DNA from: Bacteroidetes bacterium GWE2_42_24
GTDB lineage: Bacteria > Bacteroidota > Bacteroidia > Bacteroidales > TTA-H9
DNA length: 64,000 nucleotides
Assembly: GCA_001768515.1 (NCBI GenBank)
Contig: MEOA01000015.1
Span: forward strand, 6,226-70,225
Direction: 5' to 3'
A program made the position numbers and the translations under genes. Of this stretch, positions 4,661 through 54,248 are shown piece by piece. The first letter of the stretch is position 1; the number at the start of each line of letters is the position of its first letter. The notes below the pieces were generated by a model that did not search any database, was not told the origin of the DNA, and saw nothing but the letters and a program-made list of their open reading frames with translations.

Positions 4661-4732
4661 TAGCCCGTAGGGGAATCGAACCCCTGTTAACAGGATGAAA
4701 ACCTGACGTCCTAACCCCTAGACGAACGGGCC
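4661..4732 (-). tRNA. tRNA-Glu (anticodon UUC)
   Basis: Minus strand: GGCCCGT acceptor pairing with ACGGGCT, D-arm TCTAGGGGTTAGGA, anticodon loop TTTTCAT (TTC), T-arm AGGGGTTCGATTCCCCT, discriminator A. No encoded CCA. Confidence 0.9.
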
Positions 4733-9568: not shown

Positions 9569-9660
9569 CTTCCGCTCAATCGTTTAGTAAGTTTTTTAAA
9601 AAAAGCTCATCTCACTGAAAAATCTCTATCTTCGTTTCCAGATTTCCAAGTTCAACATTC

Positions 9661-12258
9661 ATGCAGCACTTTGGTTCACATCCCCAAGATCACTTTTGCA
9701 GGTTAGTAATTCTATGCCTGTTGGTATTGGTCATGGTATCCTGTACCTTCCATTCAGGTGATGAAAAGAAAGAAACGCCAGGAGAAACAGTTCAACTGGC
9801 CGATTCACTCGTTGAAAGCGGCAACTTTCCTTTAACGGAGGAGTTGTTTGGTTATTTTAGGATCATTCATACAACCCGTGATGAAAAAGATGAAGCGCTT
9901 GAACGCACTTATGCCGCGCTTGCACTTTTCTATCATTACAAGGCAAAATCGGAGATCCCCGAAGCACTTCAATACGGTAATTTCATATACCGTCAGGCGC
10001 CCGATGGTTTCCCTGATAAGCGCAGGGCCTACTTTTACAACGATATCGGCTTTTGTTATGCGATGGCTGGTAAGTTTGATTCTGCCTTGCTTAATGTAAA
10101 GCTGAGTATTCCGCTACTTGAAAAGTTGAATGACAGCATGAAGTTAGCCTGGTCGTTTAATGCCCTGGGAAATATTCACCTGTTGATGAAGAACTTGCCG
10201 GAAGCAAGGCGGGAGTATCTTAAGGCCCTGCACATCAATCGAATTCAAAACCACCTGAGTGGCATCGCGCTCAATATGCTCAACATCGCCTCCATACAGG
10301 AAGATGAGAAACAACCCGATTCGGCCCTACTAACACTCGGGCAGGCATTACCGCTGGCACTCAGTTCAAATGCAAAGAAAGCAGCACTCGATATTGCCAA
10401 TAACATGGGCGGATTACTGTTTCGGCGTGAACAATACGATTCGGCTTACAGGTATTATAAACTGGCACAATCGTTAAAACTATCCTCCGGTTCGTATAAT
10501 GAGGTAAATCTGGCACTAAATCTGGCACTGTGTGAGGCTTTCATGGGGCAAATGCAAAAAGCCAGAAAGGCATTTGATAGTCTTTTGGTGGTTTCGAAGA
10601 AGCAAGGTTATGGAAAGCAGATGACTATCATCTACGGTTTTATGTCGAAGTTATACCTTCGACAGGGACGGATTGATCTGGCCCTGCAGTTTGAGAAAGA
10701 ATCTGGTGTCATCAAGGATAGTCTACTTGCCATGTACTGGGATAAGGAAATGAATGAATCGGTCAAGAAGACTGATATCAGTGAAAAGGAATTCAACCGG
10801 CAATTGCAGAACAGCCTTGCGCTCGAGAAGGTGAAGCAAACACGAAACATGCTGATATACATTATAGTATTCACTGTAGTGCTGTCAGTATTTATGTTTG
10901 TGGCTCTGCGGAAACAACGGTTTACAAGCAGGGAGTTGATTAAGACATCGGACGACCTGAAAGAAGCCAACCAGAATATTGTAAAGATAAGCGAGATTGG
11001 ACAAGACATCATTTCACACACCGGCAATTCCGACATCATCAGACACCTCTACAGCCACCTACAGAATCTGATGCCCTGCAACATACTGGCAATAGGGATG
11101 TACAATCAGTCCGATGAATCGCTGACGTTTACGGATGCCATCGAGAAAAACGAAACGATTCCTGCCTTTTCCTATCATTGTTCTGATAAAAATAGTTTTC
11201 CCGTACTCTGCTTCAACAGCCAACAGCCAATTGTGGTCAATAACATGCAGGCCGAAGTCGGTTTATGGTTTCCCCCTGACGCAGTGATTGAGCCCAATAC
11301 CGGTGTGCTTGCTCAGGCACGGGTATACATTCCGCTGACTGTGAGCGACAACAGAATTGGCGTTTTCACAGTGCAGTCGTTTAACACCGGGGTATATACC
11401 AATCACCATGTCTCAATTCTTCATAGCATCGGAATCTATCTCGCCATCGCCCTTCAGAATACACTCAACTATGAGTCGGTTACCCGTCAACGTGATGAAC
11501 GCGATAAGGCACTTGAGCAACTGAAGGTGAGGGAAGAGCAGTTGCGCGAAACCAATGCATCGAAGGATAAATTTTTCAGTATCATAGCACATGACCTTAA
11601 GAATCCTTTCAGCTCAATTCTGGGATTCAGTGATGTGCTAACGCGTGAATGGGACAATTTTGACGAAAAGGCAAAGCATACCTTTATCAGGAGCATCAGC
11701 CTTGCTTCCCAGAGCACCTATCGTCTGCTTGAGAACCTGTTGATGTGGTCGCGTACGCAAACAGGCGGGCTGCGCTTTAATCCGGAGGTAATCGATTTGA
11801 GTAATGTCGCCCTGGAGTCTATCAGGGTGGTAGCCGGACAGGCTGAGGCAAAGAGAGTTCAGGTGATCAGTTATATTCCTTTCAATACCGCGGTGGTGGC
11901 TGATGAGAATATGCTGCAAACGGTGTTTAGAAATCTACTGACCAATGCTATCAAGTTTAGCTTCCAGGGTGGATTGGTCTCATTGTCGGCTTTCACTGAT
12001 GACGATTGGTGTCGGATAGAGATTGTCGATAATGGTATAGGCATTACCATAGAAGATCAGGTAAATCTCTTCAGGATTGATCGGAGCGTAAAACAGTCGG
12101 GTACTGATAACGAGACCGGCTCGGGTCTTGGCCTATTGCTCTGTCATGAATTAATCAACCAGCATGGCGGAAGAATCTGGGTAGAGAGCGAGCTGGGAAG
12201 AGGGAGCCGTTTTAGTTTTATCCTTCCGATACAAAAAGCAAATAATGTTGAATCATGA
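9661..12258 (+). CDS. Sensor histidine kinase: lipoprotein-like signal, TPR repeats, one TM helix, GAF-like domain, HisKA, HATPase_c
   Basis: H-box FFSIIAHDLKNPF, N-box NLLTNAIKF, G-boxes DNGIGI and GSGLGL. TM helix MLIYIIVFTVVLSVFMFVAL. TPR-like repeats lie in residues ~80-350. No response regulator is adjacent. Confidence 0.9.
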   Translation: MQHFGSHPQDHFCRLVILCLLVLVMVSCTFHSGDEKKETPGETVQLADSLVESGNFPLTEELFGYFRIIHTTRDEKDEALERTYAALALFYHYKAKSEIPEALQYGNFIYRQAPDGFPDKRRAYFYNDIGFCYAMAGKFDSALLNVKLSIPLLEKLNDSMKLAWSFNALGNIHLLMKNLPEARREYLKALHINRIQNHLSGIALNMLNIASIQEDEKQPDSALLTLGQALPLALSSNAKKAALDIANNMGGLLFRREQYDSAYRYYKLAQSLKLSSGSYNEVNLALNLALCEAFMGQMQKARKAFDSLLVVSKKQGYGKQMTIIYGFMSKLYLRQGRIDLALQFEKESGVIKDSLLAMYWDKEMNESVKKTDISEKEFNRQLQNSLALEKVKQTRNMLIYIIVFTVVLSVFMFVALRKQRFTSRELIKTSDDLKEANQNIVKISEIGQDIISHTGNSDIIRHLYSHLQNLMPCNILAIGMYNQSDESLTFTDAIEKNETIPAFSYHCSDKNSFPVLCFNSQQPIVVNNMQAEVGLWFPPDAVIEPNTGVLAQARVYIPLTVSDNRIGVFTVQSFNTGVYTNHHVSILHSIGIYLAIALQNTLNYESVTRQRDERDKALEQLKVREEQLRETNASKDKFFSIIAHDLKNPFSSILGFSDVLTREWDNFDEKAKHTFIRSISLASQSTYRLLENLLMWSRTQTGGLRFNPEVIDLSNVALESIRVVAGQAEAKRVQVISYIPFNTAVVADENMLQTVFRNLLTNAIKFSFQGGLVSLSAFTDDDWCRIEIVDNGIGITIEDQVNLFRIDRSVKQSGTDNETGSGLGLLLCHELINQHGGRIWVESELGRGSRFSFILPIQKANNVES

Positions 12259-12794
12259 ACCAGTTATCTCCCGGGACACGGATCGACCATGATCGCTATG
12301 GTCTGGGTGTTGTAAGTCTTGTTAATCTTACCACCGTTGAAGTTTTTTTTGAAAGGGGCGGCCGCGTTGAGTTTGCTAAAAACAACCTCAATGCAAAAAT
12401 TCTGAGTCAGCCTGAGAACAGTCAGGGGGCTTCTTCTCAGATTGATGTGCAGCAATTGGCTGCTGCCATTGAGGATGTGTTGGATCGCTACGGTGCGCTT
12501 CAGAAGCACATCGAACTTGGAAGGAAGTGGGAGGGTGGCACCCTGCTGCTGCAGCCCGCCAACACAAGCCTGAAACCAAAAGAAATACCTGTGGAGGTAT
12601 TTTTCCACAAGATTGTGATGGCACGCGACAGGTTGAGGGTTCTTGAGCAGAGCATCAACAGTCATCCGGTGCTCACCGATGAGGAGAAAGTTAACCTTCA
12701 GCAATATATCACCAGAATCTACGGCTCATTTACTACTTTCAATATCTTGTTCGAGAACAAGGAGGATTTTTTTAGCGGAGGTAAAGCCGACTGA
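12255..12794 (+). CDS. Hypothetical protein with N-terminal Tudor/SH3-like barrel resembling the PcrA/UvrD C-terminal (DUF3553-like) domain
   Basis: The ATG overlaps the kinase stop (ATGA). The N-terminus GTRIDHDRYGLGVVSLVNLTTVEVFFERGGRVEF follows the G-x-R-V-x-H-x-x-F/Y-G-x-G-x-V pattern. The rest is helical and unrecognised. Confidence 0.45.
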   Translation: MNQLSPGTRIDHDRYGLGVVSLVNLTTVEVFFERGGRVEFAKNNLNAKILSQPENSQGASSQIDVQQLAAAIEDVLDRYGALQKHIELGRKWEGGTLLLQPANTSLKPKEIPVEVFFHKIVMARDRLRVLEQSINSHPVLTDEEKVNLQQYITRIYGSFTTFNILFENKEDFFSGGKAD

Positions 12795-13807
12795 TGGAGA
12801 TCACAAACAATGGTGCGATCGTTAACTCAGCGCAGTGCCATTTGCTGGGACAGCGGCTATCGGTCGTTACCTTCAGACCGGAATTTTTGAAGCGGCCTTT
12901 TCTGGTTTCGCCCATTTCCGAGGAACTTCGAAGTCGAATGTTCTTTTTCTCTGTCGCCATTTGTCATCAGACTTATACCCTTCAAAACAGGGAGATGAAT
13001 CTGTTTGGGTGGGATTATCTGGAAGACGGTTTTCTGAGAATGGCTCAGACGAAACCGCATTTTCTCGATCCTTCTTTTTTGGTTGAATTGCCGGCTGATC
13101 AACTGGCCGATGAACTGGCTTTGTTTTTCAGTTCTGAAGGCTCAGTTGCCTCTTCTACGCTTGACAGGCGGTCGGAGAGGGCTTTCCTGATGAAGGAGTC
13201 CGCACGCTTTGTTCATCAGTATTATAACAATTCAGTAAAAGATTTCCTTATTTCGACAGGTAATTGTTTGAAAAACAGTCCTGAGTCCTTTTATGAGCAA
13301 CTTCGACACGTATTGCCATTTGCTGATCCTCTGTACAAGAAGTCGACCTTTCTGCTTAAATTGCTTATTGATGCCCGGCTTTATCAGATAAATGATCCTG
13401 AGAATATCATTCCTGTTATGGATTATCATATGCAACGGGTACTGCTGCGAACAGGATGTGTGGAAATTGTCGATAATGAACTGTTCGGCAATCTTTCCAG
13501 TCGTAGGGGGCTTGCTGATGATTCTTCTGTCAGGGAGGCCTCTGTGGAAGCGATGAAGGTCGTTGCCAGGGCATCAGGGCTCAATCCTTTGCTTTTGAAT
13601 GATGTGTTTTATATGCTTGGACGCAGTTGCTGTCTTGAAGAACCCCTTTGTGTTTCGCATCAGTGTAGTAAGCAGCCGTGCAGTCTTACCCTTACGCTTC
13701 ATCTTGAATCGCACAACAAATGTCTGTTTACTTCCGTGTGTCGTGGCGAAATCGACTCAGCATACCGGAGACTGTGGCATCCAATGGTGGTCACTCATTA
13801 CTATTGA
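12794..13807 (+). CDS. Divergent Qng1/DUF2419 (queuosine-salvage, glycosidase-fold)-like protein with a Cys-rich C-terminal insert
   Basis: The start overlaps the previous stop (TGATG). Motifs line up with the DUF2419 blocks I recall: PLYKKSTFLLKLL (F-x-K-R-A-Q-like), VMDYHMQRVLLRTGCV (F-A-D-Y-R-x-P-x-x-L-like, and also like the V-D-x-H-V-x-R-V helix of HhH glycosylases), and C-terminal WHPMVVTHYY (H-R-x-R-x-x-Y-Y-like). An extra segment is CCLEEPLCVSHQCSKQPC...C...C. Confidence 0.4.
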   Translation: MEITNNGAIVNSAQCHLLGQRLSVVTFRPEFLKRPFLVSPISEELRSRMFFFSVAICHQTYTLQNREMNLFGWDYLEDGFLRMAQTKPHFLDPSFLVELPADQLADELALFFSSEGSVASSTLDRRSERAFLMKESARFVHQYYNNSVKDFLISTGNCLKNSPESFYEQLRHVLPFADPLYKKSTFLLKLLIDARLYQINDPENIIPVMDYHMQRVLLRTGCVEIVDNELFGNLSSRRGLADDSSVREASVEAMKVVARASGLNPLLLNDVFYMLGRSCCLEEPLCVSHQCSKQPCSLTLTLHLESHNKCLFTSVCRGEIDSAYRRLWHPMVVTHYY

Positions 13808-13840
13808 TCACCCCTGAAGGGTATTTTGTACCTTTGTGCC

Positions 13841-14554
13841 ATGAAAACAATCGTTTATTCCGACCCATTGCCGTTGTTGACTGCAGAAACTGATTACGAA
13901 GGTATGACCTATAGCCGGCTTGTGTTCGGTGAAAGGTACTGTGCCGTGATGCTGTCTGATGGCAGGTGCGGAGTCTGTGCAACACTTGGAGTTGCCTCTC
14001 CTGTAAGCCTTCCTGCTGTTTTTGTACCCGACTTCGGGACACCTGCCGGCCGTGTGATTACGCAGGCTACCGTGAATGCTGTCTTTAATATACACGACGG
14101 AATGAGTGACAATACAGATATCGGTGCTGCCATCCTTGCTTCTGGTTTTCGCTCGATGGTGATGATTGGGTATTTTTGTCCGCTTATTGCCCCCCTGCGC
14201 GAGGCTGGTATAGGGTTGACTATTTTTGACCCTGCAGTTGACCAATCGATGGTAAGCCCCCCGGAACAACTGCCCGATGCTATTGCCGGTTGTCATCTTT
14301 TAATGGTTACGGCCACTTCGATCACCAATAACACCTTTGTGTCGCTTATGGAGCAAGTCACTGATGGAACAGAAGTTTGGCTTGTCGGTCCTTCTACGCC
14401 ACTGAGCCCATTGATGTTCAGCCAGTATCCTGTAACCCGTCTCTTTGGTACCCGCTTTGCAGCAGGAAATCATGCTTTATTAAACCTGGTGGAAGAAGGG
14501 TATGGAACAAGAGGCTTTAACCGAACAGGGGATAAGGTGATGATTGTTAGTTGA
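13841..14554 (+). CDS. DUF4213/DUF364 family protein (Rossmann-like, putative metal-chelation fold; function unknown)
   Basis: Start moved to ATG 13841 (the track start is a TTG). The N-terminal block RYCAVMLSDGRCGVCATLG and the C-terminal blocks VMIGYFCPLI, LLMVTATSITNNTF and VWLVGPSTPLSP match the DUF364 pattern as I recall it. Confidence 0.6.
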   Translation: MKTIVYSDPLPLLTAETDYEGMTYSRLVFGERYCAVMLSDGRCGVCATLGVASPVSLPAVFVPDFGTPAGRVITQATVNAVFNIHDGMSDNTDIGAAILASGFRSMVMIGYFCPLIAPLREAGIGLTIFDPAVDQSMVSPPEQLPDAIAGCHLLMVTATSITNNTFVSLMEQVTDGTEVWLVGPSTPLSPLMFSQYPVTRLFGTRFAAGNHALLNLVEEGYGTRGFNRTGDKVMIVS

Positions 14555-14657
14555 TATTAACACGAGTTTGTTATTTAGTATTTGATTTTAAGCCTAAACT
14601 ATCACCTCGGAACTCAGAATTCAAGACTTCTGACTCAATTTATTGAATTTTTTACAA

Positions 14658-15689
14658 ATGAAATATCCCTGGCTTCGTGTTGTTGGATTTTTATTGTTGT
14701 TCTACCTGATTATACGGGGCGTGTTGTATTTGATGGTGTCAACTGTGGGTGGCGACAATAAGACTGTTGATCGTCACAGTAATGTATACATTATCAGTTC
14801 TGAGGAGTGTGGAGAGAGGTCTGCTGATGAGCTTTTTCTGTTGCTGAAGGATCAATCGGACTTTGAGGTGGAGCTTATAACACCGACAGCCTTCATGGCG
14901 CTTCCGATAACGCCTGGCGCAAAGATTGTTGTTCCACCTGCCTGTGGGCCATACTGTTGGAATTATTTAGGTCAGCCGATAGTGAACCGTTTACGTGATT
15001 GGGCTGATACCGGGGCCTTGGTGTTGACTTTTAGCCAGATACCTGATATGGCAAAATTTCAGGCTGGTAATGTGTTGATTAGCCATGGTTTTTATCAGGT
15101 GAATCTCACGCTTTCTCCTGACAGCATCGTGCTATGGTTTGATGAGGTAGATATCGATTCTGCAGATTCCGGAGTGGGAGTTCTTGCGAGTGTGCGTTTC
15201 GGGAAATATAATGTACCTGTCATCTGTGTCGCAGTTCAAGGCAGAGGAGTACTGATTTCCTGTCTTGCCCGCCCTCAGGTGACAGCGGGGGCTGAGAAGA
15301 TGGTAAGCCAGCTACTTAGAATTAGAAATGGAGCAACTTTGCAGACAAAGAATCTTTGCGCTATCGTACCAATGGTTTTCGATTCGCTAAGGACCAGTCA
15401 GGTGAATATACAACTACAGACCTTGCTGACTGGTGTCCCTTCGGCACAGGTCGTTGCTATCACCTGGCTTGCAGAGCACCCTTATCCCATGGCACGGTAT
15501 GCCATCGCTCCCTTACTGTTTAGTGCAGATCAAACGGTAGTGGCTGCCGCTGCTGATGCCCTTACCCGGTTACATGCACTGAATGCCATCGAACCCCTGA
15601 AGGCGGCCATACAGTTACAATCGCCTGAATTGCGGCCTCTGCTGCGTAAGGCTGAACAGTCACTTACCAGCTGCCTGCATCAGGATTAG
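14658..15689 (+). CDS. N-terminally membrane-anchored hypothetical protein with C-terminal HEAT/armadillo-like repeats
   Basis: ATG at 14658 (MKYPWLRVVGFLLLFYLIIRGVLYLMV). The C-terminal repeats ..AITWLAEHPYPMARYAIAPLL..VVAAAADALTRLHALNAIEPLKAAI.. look HEAT-like. Confidence 0.5.
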   Translation: MKYPWLRVVGFLLLFYLIIRGVLYLMVSTVGGDNKTVDRHSNVYIISSEECGERSADELFLLLKDQSDFEVELITPTAFMALPITPGAKIVVPPACGPYCWNYLGQPIVNRLRDWADTGALVLTFSQIPDMAKFQAGNVLISHGFYQVNLTLSPDSIVLWFDEVDIDSADSGVGVLASVRFGKYNVPVICVAVQGRGVLISCLARPQVTAGAEKMVSQLLRIRNGATLQTKNLCAIVPMVFDSLRTSQVNIQLQTLLTGVPSAQVVAITWLAEHPYPMARYAIAPLLFSADQTVVAAAADALTRLHALNAIEPLKAAIQLQSPELRPLLRKAEQSLTSCLHQD

Positions 15690-15766: not shown

Positions 15767-16423
15767 ATGTTATTAAACATACTTCAACAACCTTTAGCCG
15801 GATTGCCTCTGCAGGAGTGGATAGGTTATCTGGCCTCCCTGATGATTCTTATCGGGATGACGATGAATTCGGTGCGCCGGCTTCGCTGGATTAATCTGGG
15901 CGGTAATGTTCTGTTTGCATGTTATGGCTTTCTGATTGGTAGCTTGCCGGTAGGTCTGATGAATACCCTGATCGGAATGGTAAACATCTTTTACCTGACG
16001 AAGCTATACAACAAAAAGGAATCTTTCCGATTGCTGCCGGTGCAGTTAAGCAACCGTTACCTTAAAGCTTTTCTTGAATTTTATCAGGATGACATTAATA
16101 AGTTCTTTCCTGGTTTTAAATTCAATCCTGATATGTATAACCGTGCTTATGTTGTTCTTCGTGATATGACGGTAGCTTCTGTTATCCTGGGTAATGCCGG
16201 TGAATCCGGGACCTTGCGGGTTGAGCTTGATTATGCTATTGCCGCTTATCGCGACATGAAACCAGGGGGCTATGCCTTTGGCCCTGCTGGAGGCGGACTC
16301 TCGTCAGAGGGTTTTAAGTTGATTCAGACAGTGGCGCTGACGAGTGCGCATGAGAAATATCTGAAGAAATGTGGCTTTGCTCCTAATGCCGATAAAACGT
16401 GTTGGCAACAGACGATAGGCTGA
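15767..16423 (+). CDS. YgjV-like membrane protein (3 TM) fused to an unrecognised soluble C-terminal domain
   Basis: The N-terminal segment EWIGYLASLMILIGMTMNSVRRLRWINLGGNVLFACYGFLIGSLPVGLMN resembles YgjV-family proteins. Confidence 0.5.
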   Translation: MLLNILQQPLAGLPLQEWIGYLASLMILIGMTMNSVRRLRWINLGGNVLFACYGFLIGSLPVGLMNTLIGMVNIFYLTKLYNKKESFRLLPVQLSNRYLKAFLEFYQDDINKFFPGFKFNPDMYNRAYVVLRDMTVASVILGNAGESGTLRVELDYAIAAYRDMKPGGYAFGPAGGGLSSEGFKLIQTVALTSAHEKYLKKCGFAPNADKTCWQQTIG

Positions 16424-16544: not shown

Positions 16545-17405
16545 CTATTTTATCCCCTTTACCATCCTGTTTCGTTGTTGCATGTCATTTCTCAGTACGA
16601 CATCATGGAAACCCAATTGATTGAGTAATTCGACGGTGGCCGGGCCAAAGGCCTCATTGATTTCAAATAACAGTATTCCCCCCTCATTCAGTGCGGGGAG
16701 CGCGTATTCTCCGATGCGGTGATAAAAGCGCAGGGGGTCGTCATCGGGCACAAACAATGCCAACGTTGGTTCATGGTTTAATACATCAGGCTGCATCAGC
16801 GTTTTTTCGCTTTCCCTGACATAAGGAGGATTTGAAACAATCAGGTCGAACCGGCCTTCCGGGCCGCCAACAGGTAGTTGAAAGATGTCAACCTGAATGA
16901 ACTCAACCGCTGCGGCATGCATTTCAGCATTACGGCGCCCGGTTTCAAGAGCATCAGCAGAAATATCGATTGCTACAACTGAGAGATCGGGTCGCTCAAG
17001 CTTCAGTGTGATAGCGATGCAACCACTACCTGAACCAATGTCAAGAATTCGCCGGCCATAGTCCGACAGTTCCAGTGCCCAGGCAACCAGTTCCTCCGTT
17101 TCACGTCTTGGAATCAATACCGAAGGGGAAACACTGAAGGGACGGCCATAGAACCAACCTTTACCCAACACGTATTGAACCGGTTCGTGTCCGGCAATCC
17201 GCTTGAAGGCAAAATGGACGGTTAGTAATTCTGATTCACTTAACCTATAATCACTTTCGGTCAACATCTTTAGCCTGTTGATACCCAACTTCTCTTCGAT
17301 CACCCACCCGACGAGGGTAGCCGCTTCAGTTTTGTCGAAATGTTGTTGAAGATACTGCCGGTAATAAGATACGACATCGGCCAGCCGGTTTGATGCTACC
17401 TGCAT
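16545..17405 (-). CDS. prmC: Peptide chain release factor N5-glutamine methyltransferase
   Basis: SAM motif ILDIGSGSGCI and catalytic NPPY (VSNPPYV). Length of 286 aa is typical. Confidence 0.9.
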   Translation of the reverse strand: MQVASNRLADVVSYYRQYLQQHFDKTEAATLVGWVIEEKLGINRLKMLTESDYRLSESELLTVHFAFKRIAGHEPVQYVLGKGWFYGRPFSVSPSVLIPRRETEELVAWALELSDYGRRILDIGSGSGCIAITLKLERPDLSVVAIDISADALETGRRNAEMHAAAVEFIQVDIFQLPVGGPEGRFDLIVSNPPYVRESEKTLMQPDVLNHEPTLALFVPDDDPLRFYHRIGEYALPALNEGGILLFEINEAFGPATVELLNQLGFHDVVLRNDMQQRNRMVKGIK

Positions 17406-17476
17406 TTGAATTTCTGTATTAAAGGCGCTAATTTACTACCTTTATCCCGCATTTTGCACTACAATATCATACCGGA

Positions 17477-18016
17477 ATGAGTCATACAATAGTTTATGTC
17501 GTCGCGGGTGAACAGGGTTCAGGGAAAAGTACCCTGATGATGCAGTTATTGCAGGAAGCCCGCGGGCATGGTCTACGTTGCGGGGGCTTTTTGGCCAGGG
17601 GTTACTGGAACAACAACAAGAGAACGGGTTTCGATCTGCAACTTATCGATTCAGGACATTTACTTCCTTTTTGCCGCGATAACCAGTTACCGGGTTGGGA
17701 ACCATTGCGCCGGTTTTTCTTTTCACCTGAGGCGCTTCAAACCGGTATCAGAGAAATGAAAGCAATGCGCAATCAGGAAATAGATCTGTGGCTTATAGAT
17801 GAGATCGGTCCCATTGAGCTAAAAGGGGCGTTGTGGCATGATTTCTTTTTTGACCTGATCAGAAACCACAGGGTGCCGGTGGTTGTAAGCATGAGGCCGG
17901 CACTGATAGAAGAAATCTGTAATTATTTTGAGATAGATAAGTATGTGGTTCATTCCGTAGGAGAATTAACGGCAACAGAAATACTATCTGAAATCACGGC
18001 ACGGCAGGAAAAATAG
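17477..18016 (+). CDS. P-loop NTPase, THEP1/DUF2478-like
   Basis: Walker A AGEQGSGKST and Walker B-like DLWLIDEIGPIE. 179 aa. Confidence 0.65.
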   Translation: MSHTIVYVVAGEQGSGKSTLMMQLLQEARGHGLRCGGFLARGYWNNNKRTGFDLQLIDSGHLLPFCRDNQLPGWEPLRRFFFSPEALQTGIREMKAMRNQEIDLWLIDEIGPIELKGALWHDFFFDLIRNHRVPVVVSMRPALIEEICNYFEIDKYVVHSVGELTATEILSEITARQEK

Positions 18017-25080: not shown

Positions 25081-26283
25081 TTATTTCGATTCCTGAGCTT
25101 TAAAGGCATCCATGTCGAATGTGAGACTGAACCGAAGGGTATTGTCGAGAGGGTTACGTTGGTCGGTACTCACTAGGTATGAGAAATCAAGTCCAAACAC
25201 GTTGTAGCGGAGGCCGGCACCGAAGGTGAAAAACTTGCGATCACCCTTATCTGCACTTTCGTGATGATAACCACCTCTGATGGCAAACTGTTTGTTGTAC
25301 CAATATTCAACGCCCACAGCCCAGGTGATTTCTTTCAACTCTTCGCTGAAACCATCAGGAGCATCATAGAATGATTGTAACATCCCCTGAAAAACAGAAA
25401 CATTATCATTCATACCTCTCAGGATAGGCGTTTCATTGTTAACATCCACGCCGGTATCATAAATCGGGGGTGTAGGGACGAGCAGTTTGGTAAACTCAAC
25501 CGTGCCTGTAATCGTATTAAAGTTATCGATATTATAGGTGAAGGCAGGGCCAATACGTAGCTGGGTGGGGATAAAGTCTTTTTCTATATCACTGGTATAG
25601 CTGATTTTTGAACCAATGTTGGCAATGTTAACCCCCAACGCAAACTGACCCGACTGTCCGGAGGAGAAGTCGATAGGTTTACGGTAATAGATTGAAACAT
25701 CGGCAGCAACAGAAGTCCCGGCGTGGGTTTCTACATTTCCGGATCCGACTGACTGGCCCTGAGTCAGGTTTGAATAGATAAATTTTGCCGAAACAGCTCC
25801 TGACAGATGATCGGTAAATAAACGTGAGTAGGTCCCCTGAATGGTGAACTCGTTGGGTTTGTATATGCCTTTATCCGCTCCTGAGGCATCGGTAAATTGA
25901 ATTTCGCCCAGCGAAAAATATCTGAGGGAACCGGCAATTGTCTGACGTTTGTCTAGTTTGTAGTAACCCGTAAGATAACCGAGGCCGATGTCATCAACGA
26001 GTTCTTTTAGCCAGGGGCTATATGAGACTGAAAATCCCATTTGTTTGTCAATGAAAGCGTATTTTGCAGGATTCCAATGCATGGAGTTTACATCAGGGTC
26101 GGTAGCTACACCGGTTTCTCCCATTGAGCCACCACGGGCATCAGGTGCAATCAGCATAAAAGGCACGGCAGTTGTGATGGCCAGGGGACGATATACATTC
26201 GATTCCTGCGCCCGGACCATCTGGCTGTTCAGGGAAAGACCGGCTATCAGAGCCAATGAAAAATATTTCAGTTTGAAACGCAT
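25081..26283 (-). CDS. porV: T9SS outer-membrane channel/shuttle protein PorV (LptO)
   Basis: Signal peptide, then the hallmark ITTAVPFMLIAPDARGGSMGETGVATDPDVNSMHWNPAKYAF. 400 aa beta-barrel adjacent to porU. Confidence 0.9.
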   Translation of the reverse strand: MRFKLKYFSLALIAGLSLNSQMVRAQESNVYRPLAITTAVPFMLIAPDARGGSMGETGVATDPDVNSMHWNPAKYAFIDKQMGFSVSYSPWLKELVDDIGLGYLTGYYKLDKRQTIAGSLRYFSLGEIQFTDASGADKGIYKPNEFTIQGTYSRLFTDHLSGAVSAKFIYSNLTQGQSVGSGNVETHAGTSVAADVSIYYRKPIDFSSGQSGQFALGVNIANIGSKISYTSDIEKDFIPTQLRIGPAFTYNIDNFNTITGTVEFTKLLVPTPPIYDTGVDVNNETPILRGMNDNVSVFQGMLQSFYDAPDGFSEELKEITWAVGVEYWYNKQFAIRGGYHHESADKGDRKFFTFGAGLRYNVFGLDFSYLVSTDQRNPLDNTLRFSLTFDMDAFKAQESK

Positions 26284-26414
26284 AGGATAATTAGTTTTCC
26301 TCTTAGAGATGTGTTTGTACGGTTATTAACGTAGTGTTTCCAAAAAAGTATGCAAAACTAAGGAATATTTCTAAAAAATCATTTCAACAGGGATCAGTCC
26401 CTTTCAATATAGAG

Positions 26415-52574: not shown

Positions 52575-53594
52575 ATGCCAAACGAACCATTGCCAGTCAT
52601 CACTTTTCTTAAGGCATCTGCCAATAATCCTTTAGTGGATGTACGGGCGCCGCAGGAGTTTCTGCGGGGACACATCCCGGGGGCAATCAATATTCCAATT
52701 TTCAGCGATGAACAACGGGCCAGGGTTGGCACCGAATATGCCCGTAAAGGGCAACAAGCTGCCATTTTGTTAGGATTGGATTTAATTGGACCTGAGTTGA
52801 CTCTTCGATGCCGGCAACTGATGAAACATGCTCCTGCCGGATCAATTGTCAGTCTTTACTGCTGGCGGGGTGGTCTGCGGAGCGCTGCCATGGAATGGTT
52901 GTTTAACCTGATTGGGTATTCCACCAATCGACTGCAAGGGGGTTACAAGGCTTTCAGACTTGAAGTTCAGGGATCATTCGGACTTGCATATAACCTCAGG
53001 GTGATAGCAGGCCCTACAGGTTCAGGTAAGACAGAGATACTCCGGCATATGAGTGTGCTTGGTGCTCAGGTGCTTGATCTTGAAGCGCTGGCCAACCATC
53101 GTGGTTCTGTTTTCGGTGGTTTGGGTATGGAACCCCAGCCTGGTACCGAGCATTTCGAGAACCTGCTTTATTACAGGTTATCAACCTTTAACAGAGATCA
53201 GGTTATTTGGGTTGAAGATGAGAGCCTTTCCATCGGCAACTGTTTTATTCCAAGAGAATTCTATAATCAGATGCAACAGGTCCGAACCTATGTGACAGGT
53301 GCTTCAAGGACTGAAAGGGTTGAAAGACTGGTCGGGATGTACGGATCTATAGACATAATCCTGTTGAAAGAGGCACTGGTTAAAATTGGGAAAAGGCTTG
53401 GTGGTGATAAGCTAAAGATCGCGCTTGAGGCATTGGCTGTTGGTGATCTGCATGAGGTTGCGCGGCTTTCGCTTGATTATTACGATAAAACCTATGCGGG
53501 AGGCTTATCCGCACGAAATCCAGAAAGTGTTGTTTATATCACACCTTCAGCTCAGGATACTGCTGCGATAGCCCGTCACCTCCTAGCGCTGTAA
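52575..53594 (+). CDS. mnmH: tRNA 2-selenouridine synthase
   Basis: Rhodanese domain with active-site loop YCWRGGLRS, followed by P-loop AGPTGSGKTE. 339 aa. Confidence 0.85.
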   Translation: MPNEPLPVITFLKASANNPLVDVRAPQEFLRGHIPGAINIPIFSDEQRARVGTEYARKGQQAAILLGLDLIGPELTLRCRQLMKHAPAGSIVSLYCWRGGLRSAAMEWLFNLIGYSTNRLQGGYKAFRLEVQGSFGLAYNLRVIAGPTGSGKTEILRHMSVLGAQVLDLEALANHRGSVFGGLGMEPQPGTEHFENLLYYRLSTFNRDQVIWVEDESLSIGNCFIPREFYNQMQQVRTYVTGASRTERVERLVGMYGSIDIILLKEALVKIGKRLGGDKLKIALEALAVGDLHEVARLSLDYYDKTYAGGLSARNPESVVYITPSAQDTAAIARHLLAL

Positions 53595-54248
53595 TGAATC
53601 TTTCTCTTTGTTGGTTTCTGCGGCAAAATGCCTGCACAAGGCACTGATGCCGCATTCGTTACATTTAGGCTTTCTGGCCTGACAAACATACCTGCCATGC
53701 AATATGAGCCAGTGGTGGGCTTTGGGAATCAATTCCGCGGGGATGTGTTTTACCAGTTGCCTCTCTGTTTCGAGCGGTGTTTTAGCACCACGGGTTAATC
53801 CGATACGCGCCGAAACCCTGAAAACATGAGTATCGACTGCCATAGCTGGCTTGTTGAATACCACCGATGCGATCACATTTGCTGTTTTGCGTCCGACGCC
53901 CGGAAGCTGCGTCAATTCTTCAATTGTCGGGGGGACAATTCCATTGAATTTTTCGGTAAGCATTTTGCCCATACCCAGCAAGTTCACTGCTTTGTTATTT
54001 GGATAGGAGCATGATTTGATCAGGTTAAAAACTTCTTCCTGTGTGGCTTTTGCCAATTTTTCTGCGTTGGGGAACTGTTTGAAAAATGCCGGTGTAATGA
54101 TGTTTACCCGTTTGTCGGTACATTGAGCCGAAAGGATCACTGCCACAAGCAACTGAAAGGGGTCGTGATACTGTAACTCCGTTTCGGGTTGTGGCATGTG
54201 ATGGCTGAACCAGTCGATGATGTTGTTGTAGCGTTCTGAGATCGTCAT
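53583..54248 (-). CDS. nth: Endonuclease III (DNA glycosylase/AP lyase)
   Basis: HhH motif LPGVGRKTANV, VDTHVFRVSARIGL, and the 4Fe-4S loop CQARKPKCNECGISALC. Confidence 0.9.
   Translation of the reverse strand: MTISERYNNIIDWFSHHMPQPETELQYHDPFQLLVAVILSAQCTDKRVNIITPAFFKQFPNAEKLAKATQEEVFNLIKSCSYPNNKAVNLLGMGKMLTEKFNGIVPPTIEELTQLPGVGRKTANVIASVVFNKPAMAVDTHVFRVSARIGLTRGAKTPLETERQLVKHIPAELIPKAHHWLILHGRYVCQARKPKCNECGISALCRHFAAETNKEKDSLQR

What the first reader, a model, noticed from the sequence alone, without database searches (positions are those of the whole stretch)
9661..15689. Orphan TPR-GAF histidine kinase translationally coupled to Tudor-like and Qng1-like proteins, followed by DUF364 and HEAT genes
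The kinase stop overlaps the next start (ATGA at 12255-12258), and that gene's stop overlaps the following start (TGATG at 12792-12796). The three are therefore almost certainly co-translated. No response regulator is nearby. The next two genes follow after 33-nt and 103-nt gaps on the same strand. I know of no described system combining these families. One possibility is a signalling-controlled nucleoside/nucleotide (queuosine-like) salvage or modification module. Another is a kinase output through a Tudor-like domain, which in PcrA/UvrD contacts RNA polymerase, in place of a receiver domain.
Basis: inference. Interest (0 to 1): 0.6.

Follow-up and report, generated by a model that had tools for sequence, protein, structure and literature searches.

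The report
Clade-specific kinase beside Qng1-like enzyme
The overlapping genes are real, but the kinase is a recent addition beside two older, mostly unlinked genes: a Bacteroidota protein family with a helicase-type Tudor domain, and a cysteine-rich relative of the queuine-salvage enzyme Qng1 that elsewhere sits in purine-degradation clusters. This looks like ordinary gene packing, not a new signalling system.

Summary
All six ORFs, both overlaps (ATGA at 12255-12258, TGATG at 12792-12796) and both gaps are as described. No receiver domain occurs anywhere in the 64 kb. Four family calls hold up: TPR-GAF kinase, UvrD/PcrA-type Tudor domain (g2, by fold), Qng1 fold with the catalytic Asp/Lys/Tyr conserved (g3), and DUF364. 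The HEAT call is weak.

The "system" does not hold up. Full-length relatives of the kinase exist only in one small uncultured Bacteroidales clade. There the whole chromosomal backbone is syntenic, not just these genes. Sister lineages keep g2-g3 without the kinase. About 65 of 80 species with g3 lack g2. None of 80 metagenomic g2 loci has g3 or an adjacent kinase.

Elsewhere g3 sits beside a selenium-dependent xanthine dehydrogenase, an SsnA-like amidohydrolase, HIT and EamA genes. That fits a nucleotide or nucleobase role. A conserved TACCTTTG box directly before DUF364 suggests two transcription units.

The salvage idea is partly supported. Kinase output through the Tudor domain is not. The most interesting by-product is g3: a Qng1-like branch with seven invariant cysteines in its C-terminal region.

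The parts
9627..9634 (+). Promoter-like box TATCTTCG, a one-mismatch version of the Bacteroidetes -7 element TAnnTTTG, 26 nt before the kinase ATG
   Evidence: The TA(T/C)CTTCG box and the downstream CAAGTTCAACAT(T/C)CATG are conserved in the five contigs where this region was read: the window, L005, L166, L167 and L168. Its function as a promoter is inferred.
9661..12258 (+). Sensor histidine kinase, 865 aa. It has an N-terminal hydrophobic segment ending in Cys, a TPR-rich extracytoplasmic region, a TM helix near residue 400, a GAF domain, HisKA and HATPase_c.
   Evidence: Pfam: HATPase_c 94.8 bits, HisKA 39.2, TPR_12 65.5, GAF_2 31.1. The best NCBIfam hit is FimS at 226 bits against a cut-off of 600. 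The H-box AHDLKNP and the G boxes are visible in the translation. Full-length orthologues occur only in a small clade.
12255..12794 (+). g2, 179 aa. An N-terminal UvrD/PcrA-type Tudor barrel (residues ~4-52) is followed by a highly conserved C-terminal domain (residues ~90-172) of unknown function.
   Evidence: Foldseek matches 9dqs, 7egt, 7egs and 5dma with target TM 0.79-0.91 and rmsd 0.9-1.5 A. It has no Pfam or NCBIfam hit of its own. It keeps all 45 invariant columns of alignment A1. The family has 1018 representatives at 50% identity.
12794..13807 (+). g3, 337 aa. A Qng1/DUF2419-fold (HhH glycosylase superfamily) enzyme with a family-specific C-terminal module of seven invariant Cys and an invariant C-terminal T-H-x-Y motif (THYY in the window protein).
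   Evidence: The AF2 model has pLDDT 95.4. Foldseek top hits are Qng1 structures 7u07/7u91 at E 1e-9 and TM 0.63-0.68. The family profile hits Qng1 at E 1.2e-3, with D231/Y232/K199 aligned to the invariant D210/Y211/K182. Of 44 family members, 32 hit PF10343.
13829..13836 (+). TACCTTTG, a Bacteroidetes -7 promoter consensus, 4 nt before the DUF364 ATG
   Evidence: TACCTTTG (TACATTTG in L167) lies 4-5 nt before the DUF364 ATG in all six kinase-clade contigs, although the g3-DUF364 spacer varies from 33 to 237 nt. Promoter function is inferred.
13841..14554 (+). g4, a DUF4213 + DUF364 protein of 237 aa
   Evidence: Pfam: DUF364 81 bits (cut-off 23) and DUF4213 27.6 bits (cut-off 23.5). PDB 3l5o matches at E 3.8e-4. 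Among the loci examined it occurs only in the kinase clade.
14658..15689 (+). g5, 343 aa. A fast-evolving protein with an N-terminal membrane anchor and a weak HEAT-like C-terminus.
   Evidence: HEAT_2 scores 21.2 bits, below the 27.7 cut-off. There are weak alphaRep/HEAT matches in the PDB. It is only 32-34% identical within the clade. It also follows g3 in L008 and L010.
15767..16423 (+). g6, 218 aa. Three TM helices weakly similar to half of YgjV, followed by a C-terminal GNAT-like domain.
   Evidence: All 7 orthologues weakly match Imp-YgjV (best E 7.5e-5), and 3 of 7 match GNAT Acetyltransf_1 (best E 1.2e-5). It lies next to or near g3 in three separate g3 clades.

Best explanation
This is a gene array built up stepwise around an older g2-g3 pair, not a dedicated signalling system.

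Assembly. In one small clade of uncultured Bacteroidales, a clade-specific sensor kinase landed between an MFS transporter gene and g2. DUF364 and g6 were added downstream of g3.

Transcription (inferred). The array is probably read as two units. The first is kinase-g2-g3: these genes overlap by 4 nt and 1 nt, and no promoter or terminator motif lies between them. The second is DUF364-g5-g6, which sits behind its own conserved TACCTTTG box.

Functions.
- g3 is the informative enzyme. It is a Qng1-fold N-glycosidase with the catalytic Asp, Lys and Tyr conserved, plus a metal-binding-looking module of seven invariant Cys. It most likely releases a purine or 7-deazapurine base from a nucleoside 5'-phosphate or nucleoside, for salvage or catabolism. 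The substrate is unknown.
- g6 (a small membrane domain plus GNAT) is the most plausible functional partner of g3. DUF364 and g5 are less likely partners.
- g2 belongs to a widespread, mostly Bacteroidota protein family with an RNA-polymerase-binding-type Tudor domain. It keeps its general function here.
- The kinase is a conventional sensor with an extracytoplasmic TPR region and a cytoplasmic GAF domain. It presumably phosphorylates an unlinked response regulator.

The overlaps mean co-expression in this clade. They do not show a shared mechanism.
For: Shown by tool results:
- Family and fold assignments are supported.
- The kinase has only seven other full-length relatives in the database, at 49-100% identity. 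The next hits cover just the catalytic core.
- In that clade the order MFS(-)|kinase-g2-g3-DUF364-g5-g6 is conserved. So are unrelated flanking genes: Na/H exchanger, DUF6340, NTPase, PrmC, NusB-like, ParA, ParB, DUF5683 and ABC-F.
- Sister lineages have MFS(-) or other genes directly before g2-g3, with no kinase.
- On the g3 tree, the g2-linked genes form one clade and the kinase clade is nested inside it.
- About 65 of 80 species-level g3 loci lack g2.
- None of 80 metagenomic g2 loci has g3, DUF364, g5 or g6. An adjacent kinase is rare, and no neighbour is conserved in more than 12 of 54 loci. Maribellus comscasis g2 sits between a LysE gene and an esterase gene.
- Neighbours of g3 elsewhere: Se-dependent XDH, which passes the TIGR03311 cut-off, in 24 loci; SsnA-like in 18; HIT in 13; EamA in 24.
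- SsnA and the Se-dependent hydroxylases act in anaerobic purine degradation (bioRxiv 10.1101/2025.04.24.650524).
- A conserved -7 box lies before DUF364.
- 4-nt and 8-nt overlaps also join unrelated genes in this window.

Inferred: the direction of gain or loss, the transcription units, the substrate class of g3, and metal binding by the Cys module.
Against: - The kinase/g2 4-nt overlap and the kinase-g3 neighbourhood persist while kinase identity falls to 49%. They persist even in L167, where g2 is deleted. Some selection for co-expression therefore cannot be excluded.
- No response regulator is found in 64 kb or in the clade's contigs, so the kinase's output is unexplained.
- L026 and L035, a sister lineage, carry receiver-kinase hybrid genes just downstream of g3. 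This hints at a second association with signalling genes.
- The window contains none of the XDH, SsnA or HIT genes, so carrying that context over to this g3 is indirect.
- The seven-Cys module is typical of Fe-S DNA glycosylases, so a nucleic-acid substrate is not excluded.
- Most contigs are MAG or metagenome fragments, so an absence is only local.
Confidence: 0.55

Rival explanations
1. Signalling-controlled nucleoside salvage module. The kinase senses the substrate or a related cue through its TPR or GAF domains. It is co-translated with g2 and g3 so that sensing and salvage are expressed together, and it controls the module through an unlinked regulator.
For: The overlapping kinase-g2-g3 order is conserved in six divergent contigs, with kinase identity 49-87%. 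Kinase-g3 adjacency survives loss of g2 in L167. No promoter motif was found between the kinase and g2. GAF domains commonly bind nucleotides and small ligands (general knowledge). g3 is Qng1-like and sits in nucleobase contexts elsewhere.
Against: The linkage has a single evolutionary origin. Unrelated flanking genes are equally syntenic. Most g3 and g2 genes have no kinase nearby. There is no response regulator. There is no riboswitch or other regulatory link. Same-strand overlaps are routine in this window.
Confidence: 0.2
2. Transcription-coupled base-excision idea. g2 uses its UvrD/Mfd-type Tudor domain to dock on RNA polymerase. It recruits g3, which acts as an Fe-S HhH glycosylase on DNA or RNA and not on free nucleotides.
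For: The g2 Tudor domain superposes on UvrD Tudor domains that bind the RNA polymerase lobe or UvrB (7egs, 7egt). Multi-Tudor relatives pass the Pfam PcrA_UvrD_tudor and CarD_TRCF_RID cut-offs. g3 belongs to the HhH glycosylase superfamily and has a Cys-rich C-terminus like EndoIII and MutY. g2 and g3 overlap by 1 nt and are adjacent in about 13 of 80 species.
Against: g3 is much closer to Qng1 (TM 0.63-0.68) than to DNA glycosylases (TM 0.38-0.45). In Qng1 the DNA-binding cleft is blocked (PMC9881137). The Cys spacing differs from the EndoIII C-X6-C-X2-C-X5-C loop. Most g3 genes sit with small-molecule enzymes and transporters, not repair genes. The g2-g3 linkage arose once. A canonical HhH-GPD glycosylase is encoded elsewhere in the window at 53583-54248.
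Confidence: 0.08
3. Kinase output through the Tudor protein. g2 replaces a receiver domain and carries the kinase signal to RNA polymerase.
For: The kinase stop overlaps the g2 start. There is no receiver in the window. The g2 N-terminus is a Tudor domain of the RNA-polymerase-binding type.
Against: The g2 family has 1018 representatives at 50% identity, and its members are almost never beside a kinase. The window g2 keeps every invariant family residue, so nothing suggests specialisation. g2 is deleted in kinase-clade contig L167 while the kinase is intact. No precedent or phospho-acceptor motif was identified.
Confidence: 0.04

Closest known systems
Qng1 / DUF2419 (PF10343), the queuosine-5'-phosphate N-glycosylase (PDB 7u07, 7u91; PMC9881137)
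   Same: The fold is the same two-lobe HhH-type fold (Foldseek E 1e-9, TM 0.63-0.68). The catalytic Asp, the ribose-stacking Tyr and the HhH Lys align to invariant D210, Y211 and K182. The protein ends in an invariant aromatic residue, as Qng1 does with Y323.
   Different: Identity is only 16%. The window protein scores 14.7 bits against the Pfam cut-off of 25. The C-terminal region that carries the Qng1 7-deazaguanine contacts (D298, W302) is replaced by a module with seven invariant Cys, whereas Qng1 is metal-independent. The genomic context is purine degradation (Se-XDH, SsnA), HIT and EamA, with no queuosine genes seen.
Fe-S HhH DNA glycosylases (EndoIII/Nth, MutY) and AGOG
   Same: Same superfamily. 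Both have a Cys-rich C-terminal segment and a catalytic Asp after the HhH motif.
   Different: The fold match is much weaker (E 1e-3 to 0.1, TM 0.38-0.45). There is no HhH-GPD Pfam hit. The Cys spacing (CC-x5-C-x4-C-x4-C-x13-C-x5-C) is not the EndoIII cluster loop.
C-terminal Tudor domain of UvrD/PcrA (PF21196) and the CarD/TRCF RID (PF02559)
   Same: The g2 N-terminal five-strand barrel superposes at 0.9-1.5 A with 28-37% identity to the UvrD1 and T. thermophilus UvrD Tudor domains, and 15-17% to the E. coli UvrD and PcrA domains. The G-x-R-V-x-H-x-x-Y-G-x-G motif is shared. Multi-Tudor relatives pass both Pfam cut-offs.
   Different: g2 is a stand-alone 179-aa protein with no helicase. Its defining part is a different, highly conserved C-terminal domain with no PDB or Pfam match. 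It shows no detectable homology to the CarD C-terminal domain (hhalign probability 0.3%, using a CarD sequence recalled from memory). CarD is reported absent from Bacteroidetes (PMC4593161).
FimS-type TPR sensor kinases of Porphyromonas (NF053520)
   Same: Both have an N-terminal TPR sensor region, a membrane anchor, and a HisKA/HATPase_c core. FimS is the best-scoring NCBIfam model.
   Different: The score of 226 bits is far below the 600-bit cut-off. This kinase has an extra cytoplasmic GAF domain. It has no adjacent FimR-like response regulator.
DUF364 family (PDB 3l5o Dhaf4260; Orf5 methyl-SAM cyclase, PMC12930334)
   Same: g4 has both the DUF4213 and DUF364 domains above the cut-offs.
   Different: The only characterised member cyclises 4''-methyl-SAM within a Streptomyces natural-product cluster. 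No radical-SAM methylase or NRPS is present here, so that activity cannot be transferred.

Membership tests
Two-component sensor histidine kinase | HisKA dimerisation/phospho-acceptor domain with the H-box histidine | tested here: met
   PF00512 scores 39.2 bits against a cut-off of 26.9, at residues 635-702. The motif AHDLKNP is in the translation.
Two-component sensor histidine kinase | HATPase_c catalytic domain | tested here: met
   PF02518 scores 94.8 bits against a cut-off of 26.4.
Two-component sensor histidine kinase | Cognate response regulator encoded nearby | tested here: not met
   There is no Response_reg domain in any window ORF or in the kinase-clade contigs. This makes the kinase an orphan. 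It does not stop it being a kinase.
FimS (NF053520) | Score above the NCBIfam equivalog cut-off | tested here: not met
   226.2 bits against a cut-off of 600.
PcrA/UvrD Tudor domain (PF21196) | Pfam profile match | tested here: not met
   The window g2 has no hit, even at E<=10. The relatives P0280 and P0380 pass, at 36.1 and 34.9 bits against a cut-off of 23.9.
PcrA/UvrD Tudor domain (PF21196) | Five-strand Tudor/SH3-like barrel that superposes on solved domains | tested here: met
   Foldseek matches 9dqs, 7egt, 7egs and 5dma with target TM 0.79-0.91 and rmsd 0.9-1.5 A. The model pLDDT in this region is about 70-79.
PcrA/UvrD Tudor domain (PF21196) | Binding to the RNA polymerase beta lobe or UvrB | not testable with these tools
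   This needs a pull-down or a complex prediction. No multimer tool was available.
Qng1 / Q_salvage (PF10343) | Pfam profile match above the gathering score | tested here: not met
   The window g3 scores 14.7 bits against a cut-off of 25. Of 44 family members, 32 match at E<=0.1, with a best E of 9.8e-9. The family therefore lies at the edge of the model.
Qng1 / Q_salvage (PF10343) | Qng1 fold | tested here: met
   The AF2 model has pLDDT 95.4. Eleven Qng1/QNG1 chains are the top hits, at E 1e-9 to 2e-8 and TM 0.59-0.68.
Qng1 / Q_salvage (PF10343) | Catalytic Asp (D231), HhH Lys (K199) and ribose-stacking Tyr (Y232) | tested here: met
   The profile alignment puts D231/Y232 on the invariant D210/Y211 and K199 on the invariant K182. 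The roles of these residues come from PMC9881137.
Qng1 / Q_salvage (PF10343) | 7-Deazaguanine recognition residues (D298, W302) and the cyclopentenediol pocket | tested here: inconclusive
   The sequence alignment to Qng1 stops at profile position 254. The g3 C-terminus is the Cys-rich module instead. No model coordinates were available for inspection.
Qng1 / Q_salvage (PF10343) | Hydrolysis of queuosine 5'-phosphate to queuine | not testable with these tools
   This needs an enzyme assay.
EndoIII/MutY-type Fe-S DNA glycosylase | HhH-GPD profile match and the C-X6-C-X2-C-X5-C cluster loop | tested here: not met
   There is no HhH-GPD hit. The invariant Cys are at 279, 280, 286, 291, 296, 310 and 316, a different spacing. 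The structural match is only E 3.5e-3 or worse.
DUF364 / DUF4213 | Both Pfam domains above their cut-offs | tested here: met
   81.0 bits against 23, and 27.6 bits against 23.5.
HEAT repeat protein | HEAT profile match above the cut-off | tested here: not met
   HEAT_2 scores 21.2 bits against a cut-off of 27.7, at residues 261-323 only. The alphaRep matches have E 0.7-2.7.
CarD/CdnL | Homology of the C-terminal domain to the CarD C-terminal domain | tested here: not met
   hhalign probability is 0.3%, and only 18 N-terminal residues align.
Known anti-phage defence systems (PADLOC) | Any component matching a defence model | tested here: not met
   The only hit is a generic TPR match at E 9e-4.

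The most novel reading that the evidence does not exclude
g3 defines an uncharacterised branch of the Qng1/HhH-glycosylase superfamily with seven invariant cysteines (presumably binding Fe-S or Zn). In anaerobic Bacteroidales it would liberate a purine or 7-deazapurine base from a nucleotide. The base would then enter selenium-dependent purine degradation (Se-XDH, SsnA) or salvage. g6, a small membrane protein fused to a GNAT domain, would be a recurrent partner. In this clade the enzyme has been captured into the transcript of a clade-specific sensor kinase.
Probability: 0.3. Interest if true: 0.55.

Novelty: new variant of a known kind. Interest (0 to 1): 0.33.

Why it matters
As a system it matters little. 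The kinase linkage is a local, single-origin arrangement, and overlapping start and stop codons are routine here.

Two components are worth a specialist's attention.

- **g3.** This is a Qng1-like enzyme with a conserved catalytic triad and a novel seven-Cys module. It recurs next to selenium-dependent xanthine dehydrogenase and SsnA. It could be a missing nucleotide-to-base entry step for the recently described anaerobic purine degradation pathways, or a new route for deazapurine salvage.
- **g2.** This family is widespread, mainly in Bacteroidota. It has no Pfam, NCBIfam or PDB assignment, yet carries an RNA-polymerase-binding-type Tudor domain, in a phylum reported to lack CarD.

Both ideas can be tested with standard biochemistry.

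Tried and rejected
- **Defence system.** PADLOC found nothing.
- **Riboswitch link to queuosine or purines.** Rfam found only a tRNA in the window, and nothing in 16 g3 loci.
- **A conserved functional neighbour for g2.** Clustering the neighbours in 80 metagenome loci gave no partner in more than 12 of 54 loci.
- **g2 as a CarD homologue.** hhalign probability was 0.3%.
- **PDB sequence matches.** Only noise for g5 and g6 and nothing for the g2 C-terminal domain.
- **Sigma-70 promoter and intrinsic terminator scans.** Neither was enriched over shuffles. TAnnTTTG is not enriched window-wide either (40 found, 44.8 expected). Only its position and its conservation before DUF364 are informative.
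- **XDH, SsnA, HIT and EamA homologues in the window.** None found.
- **A second copy of g2 or g3 in the window.** None found.
- **A compositional anomaly at the kinase.** None; GC is 0.457 against a window-wide value of about 0.46.

Full report
**1. Observation**

The region holds six same-strand ORFs:
- kinase, 9661-12258, 865 aa
- g2, 12255-12794, 179 aa
- g3, 12794-13807, 337 aa
- g4, 13841-14554, 237 aa
- g5, 14658-15689, 343 aa
- g6, 15767-16423, 218 aa

The surrounding 64 kb is ordinary chromosome. It carries ParA/ParB, ThrRS, type IX secretion components, gingipain-like proteases and peptidoglycan-recycling genes. Composition is flat.

The proteins are 100% identical to entries from the MAGs "Bacteroidetes bacterium HGW-Bacteroidetes-22" and "GWE2_42_24".

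Overlapping junctions are not unusual here. Three more occur in the window: ParB/DUF5683, heptosyltransferase/Sua5-YrdC, and Mur ligase/AnmK. At least two of these pairs have no evident functional relationship.

**2. What the proteins are**

*Kinase.* It passes the Pfam cut-offs for HATPase_c, HisKA, TPR_12 and GAF_2. The sequence shows an N-terminal hydrophobic segment ending in Cys, about 370 residues of TPR, a TM helix near residue 400, then GAF and the kinase core with an intact H-box. The best NCBIfam model is Porphyromonas FimS, but the score is far below its cut-off: 226 bits against 600. No receiver domain exists anywhere in the window, by Pfam or by phmmer.

*g2.* It has no Pfam or NCBIfam match.
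- Its AF2 model (pLDDT 73) has an N-terminal five-strand barrel that superposes on the UvrD/PcrA Tudor domains 9dqs, 7egt, 7egs and 5dma. Target TM is 0.79-0.91 and rmsd is 0.9-1.5 Å.
- Relatives with several Tudor repeats pass the Pfam cut-offs for PcrA_UvrD_tudor and CarD_TRCF_RID.
- The most conserved part is a C-terminal domain (residues ~90-172) with no match in the PDB.

*g3.* It scores below the Pfam cut-off for Q_salvage (14.7 bits against 25), but 32 of 44 family members hit that model.
- Its AF2 model (pLDDT 95.4) matches the Qng1 structures first, at E 1e-9 and TM 0.63-0.68. DNA glycosylases match only weakly.
- A family profile aligns Qng1 D231/Y232/K199 onto the invariant D210/Y211/K182. 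The roles of these residues come from PMC9881137.
- Unlike Qng1, the family carries seven invariant Cys between residues 279 and 316, plus C57. It ends in an invariant T-H-x-Y motif, THYY in the window protein.

*g4.* It is a DUF4213 + DUF364 protein, above both cut-offs. The only characterised DUF364 enzyme cyclises a methyl-SAM derivative (PMC12930334).

*g5.* It is membrane-anchored, evolves fast and is only weakly HEAT-like.

*g6.* It combines three TM helices weakly similar to half of YgjV with a GNAT-like domain.

**3. Is the linkage conserved?**

*Anchoring on g3* (80 species-level genome loci):
- The full array occurs only in the closest relatives.
- About 13 loci have g2 next to g3.
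- About 65 loci have g3 without g2.

*Anchoring on the kinase*: only seven other full-length relatives exist in 5.8 billion proteins, at 49-100% identity. All further hits cover only the catalytic core.

*The kinase-clade contigs* L003/L005, L165, L166, L167 and L168 keep the order MFS(-)|kinase-g2-g3-DUF364-g5-g6 and the 4-nt overlap. They also keep the unrelated backbone: Na/H exchanger, DUF6340, NTPase, PrmC, NusB-like, ParAB, DUF5683 and ABC-F. Synteny here is therefore general and not specific to these genes.

*Sister lineages* have MFS(-), DUF6340 or a NifX/ferredoxin cluster directly before g2-g3, and no kinase.

*A neighbour-joining tree of g3* places all g2-linked genes but one in a single clade, with the kinase clade nested inside it. 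The g2-g3 linkage and the kinase insertion are therefore each one event.

*In L167*, g2 is reduced to a 44-codon remnant, while the kinase, g3 and DUF364 remain.

*Anchoring on g2* (80 metagenome loci at 46-58% identity): no g3, DUF364, g5 or g6 is nearby, and no neighbour is conserved in more than 12 of 54 loci. In Maribellus comscasis, g2 sits beside LysE, an esterase and a NUDIX gene. The family has 1018 representatives at 50% identity, and its C-terminal domain often occurs without the Tudor domain. The window g2 keeps all 45 invariant family positions.

**4. Context of g3 elsewhere**

In the 80 species, the recurrent neighbours of g3 are:

| Neighbour | Loci | Position relative to g3 |
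|---|---|---|
| Selenium-dependent xanthine dehydrogenase (TIGR03311, 881 bits against an 830 cut-off) | 24 | upstream |
| SsnA-like amidohydrolase | 18 | immediately downstream |
| CoA-binding protein | 17 | immediately upstream |
| HIT protein | 13 | downstream |
| EamA transporters | 24 | either side |

- SsnA and the selenium-dependent hydroxylases act in anaerobic purine degradation (bioRxiv 10.1101/2025.04.24.650524).
- These contexts are spread across the g3 tree, including one g2-linked locus, L054.
- None of these genes is in the window.
- g6 lies next to or near g3 in three separate g3 clades, which makes it the best candidate partner.
- g5 follows g3 in L008 and L010.
- No riboswitch was found.

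**5. Transcription units (inferred)**

- A perfect Bacteroidetes -7 consensus, TACCTTTG (TACATTTG in L167), lies 4-5 nt before the DUF364 ATG in all six clade contigs. This holds although the g3-DUF364 spacer varies from 33 to 237 nt.
- A conserved TA(T/C)CTTCG box lies 26 nt before the kinase ATG.
- No such motif and no terminator-like hairpin separates the kinase, g2 and g3.
- The likely units are kinase-g2-g3 and DUF364-g5-g6.

**6. Interpretation**

The best-supported reading is stepwise accretion. An old g2-g3 pair, itself a single-origin juxtaposition, acquired a clade-specific kinase upstream and DUF364 and g6 downstream.

- Co-transcription of the kinase with g2 and g3, and possibly termination-reinitiation between them, is plausible in this clade.
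- Nothing indicates that the kinase acts on or through g2 or g3.
- g3 is most likely a nucleotide or nucleoside N-glycosidase for a purine-like base, with an added metal-binding module. Its substrate is unknown, and specificity for queuosine is neither supported nor excluded.
- g2 belongs to a widespread, mostly Bacteroidota family that may bind RNA polymerase. CarD is reported absent from the phylum (PMC4593161), but no CarD homology was detected.

Points that keep the signalling rival alive:
- the overlap persists down to 49% kinase identity;
- kinase-g3 adjacency survives the loss of g2;
- no response regulator was found;
- receiver-kinase hybrid genes lie downstream of g3 in L026 and L035.

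**7. Verdict**

The family calls and the nucleoside theme hold. The conserved five-gene system and the Tudor-as-output idea do not.
- Novelty lies in g3 as a new variant of the Qng1 kind, and in the uncharacterised g2 family, not in a new signalling system.
- Interest is about 0.33.

Noticed in passing
window 15767-16423; L032 2397-3014; L045 5903-6589; L044 12060-12698: g6 (three TM helices weakly YgjV-like, plus a GNAT-like domain) lies directly after g3 in L032 and L045 and one gene away in L044. With the kinase clade, that makes three separate branches of the g3 tree. It is the only neighbour of g3 in this window whose association recurs independently.
   Followed up: partly
window 13829-13836; L005 11036; L165 4255; L006 1510; L168 5807; L167 5339: TACCTTTG (TACATTTG in L167) is conserved 4-5 nt before the DUF364 ATG although the spacer length varies from 33 to 237 nt. 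This suggests a dedicated promoter giving a leaderless or near-leaderless mRNA.
   Followed up: partly
L167 4031-4165: In this kinase-clade contig g2 is reduced to a 44-codon remnant that still overlaps the kinase stop by 4 nt, and g3 follows directly. It is a single Logan contig, so an assembly artefact is not excluded.
   Followed up: partly
g2 family (P0264-P0413; e.g. P0280, P0287, P0292, P0380): The conserved g2 C-terminal domain often occurs alone or behind unrelated N-termini. Some 490-515-aa relatives carry four to six Tudor-like repeats. The family has no Pfam, NCBIfam or PDB assignment, in a phylum reported to lack CarD.
   Followed up: partly
L026 11276-12388; L035 11108-14171: In a sister lineage that has g2-g3 but no upstream kinase, receiver-plus-kinase hybrid genes lie about 170-320 nt downstream of g3 on the same strand. 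Their kinase cores are only distantly related to the window kinase (E 1e-7 to 1e-12).
   Followed up: no
L007 7414-9227; L009 7160-9210: Between MFS and g2 these loci carry a small cluster: a DUF134-like HTH/zinc-ribbon protein, two NifX/NifB-like proteins with His-rich tails, and a 4Fe-4S ferredoxin-like protein. The slot upstream of g2 is therefore a hotspot for different insertions.
   Followed up: no
window 9661 versus 9733: The public annotation of the identical kinase (P0241, 841 aa) starts 24 codons downstream. That start removes the hydrophobic N-terminal segment ending in Cys (LVILCLLVLVMVSC), which looks like a signal or lipoprotein anchor. The long start is conserved in the 865-aa orthologues.
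   Followed up: partly
window 16545-18016 versus L165 6710-8164: The PrmC-like methyltransferase and NTPase_1 gene pair is inverted between the window and the L165/L006 lineage.
   Followed up: no
window 25081-37325: Two tandem giant Peptidase_C25 (gingipain-family) proteins of 1278 and 1377 aa are flanked by PorV and PorP/SprF type IX secretion genes and an FGE-sulfatase-domain protein.
   Followed up: no
window 53583-54248 (-): A canonical HhH-GPD/EndoIII-type glycosylase is encoded elsewhere in the window, so g3 is not the organism's standard Nth.
   Followed up: no
L025, L048, L051 (also P0105): A few g3 homologues come from bins labelled Aenigmatarchaeota, Methanosarcinales, 'archaeon' or Patescibacteria. 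The three archaeal-bin genes cluster together on the g3 tree. This is either horizontal transfer or mis-binning.
   Followed up: no
window 4661-4732 (-): This tRNA gene is the only Rfam match in the window.
   Followed up: no
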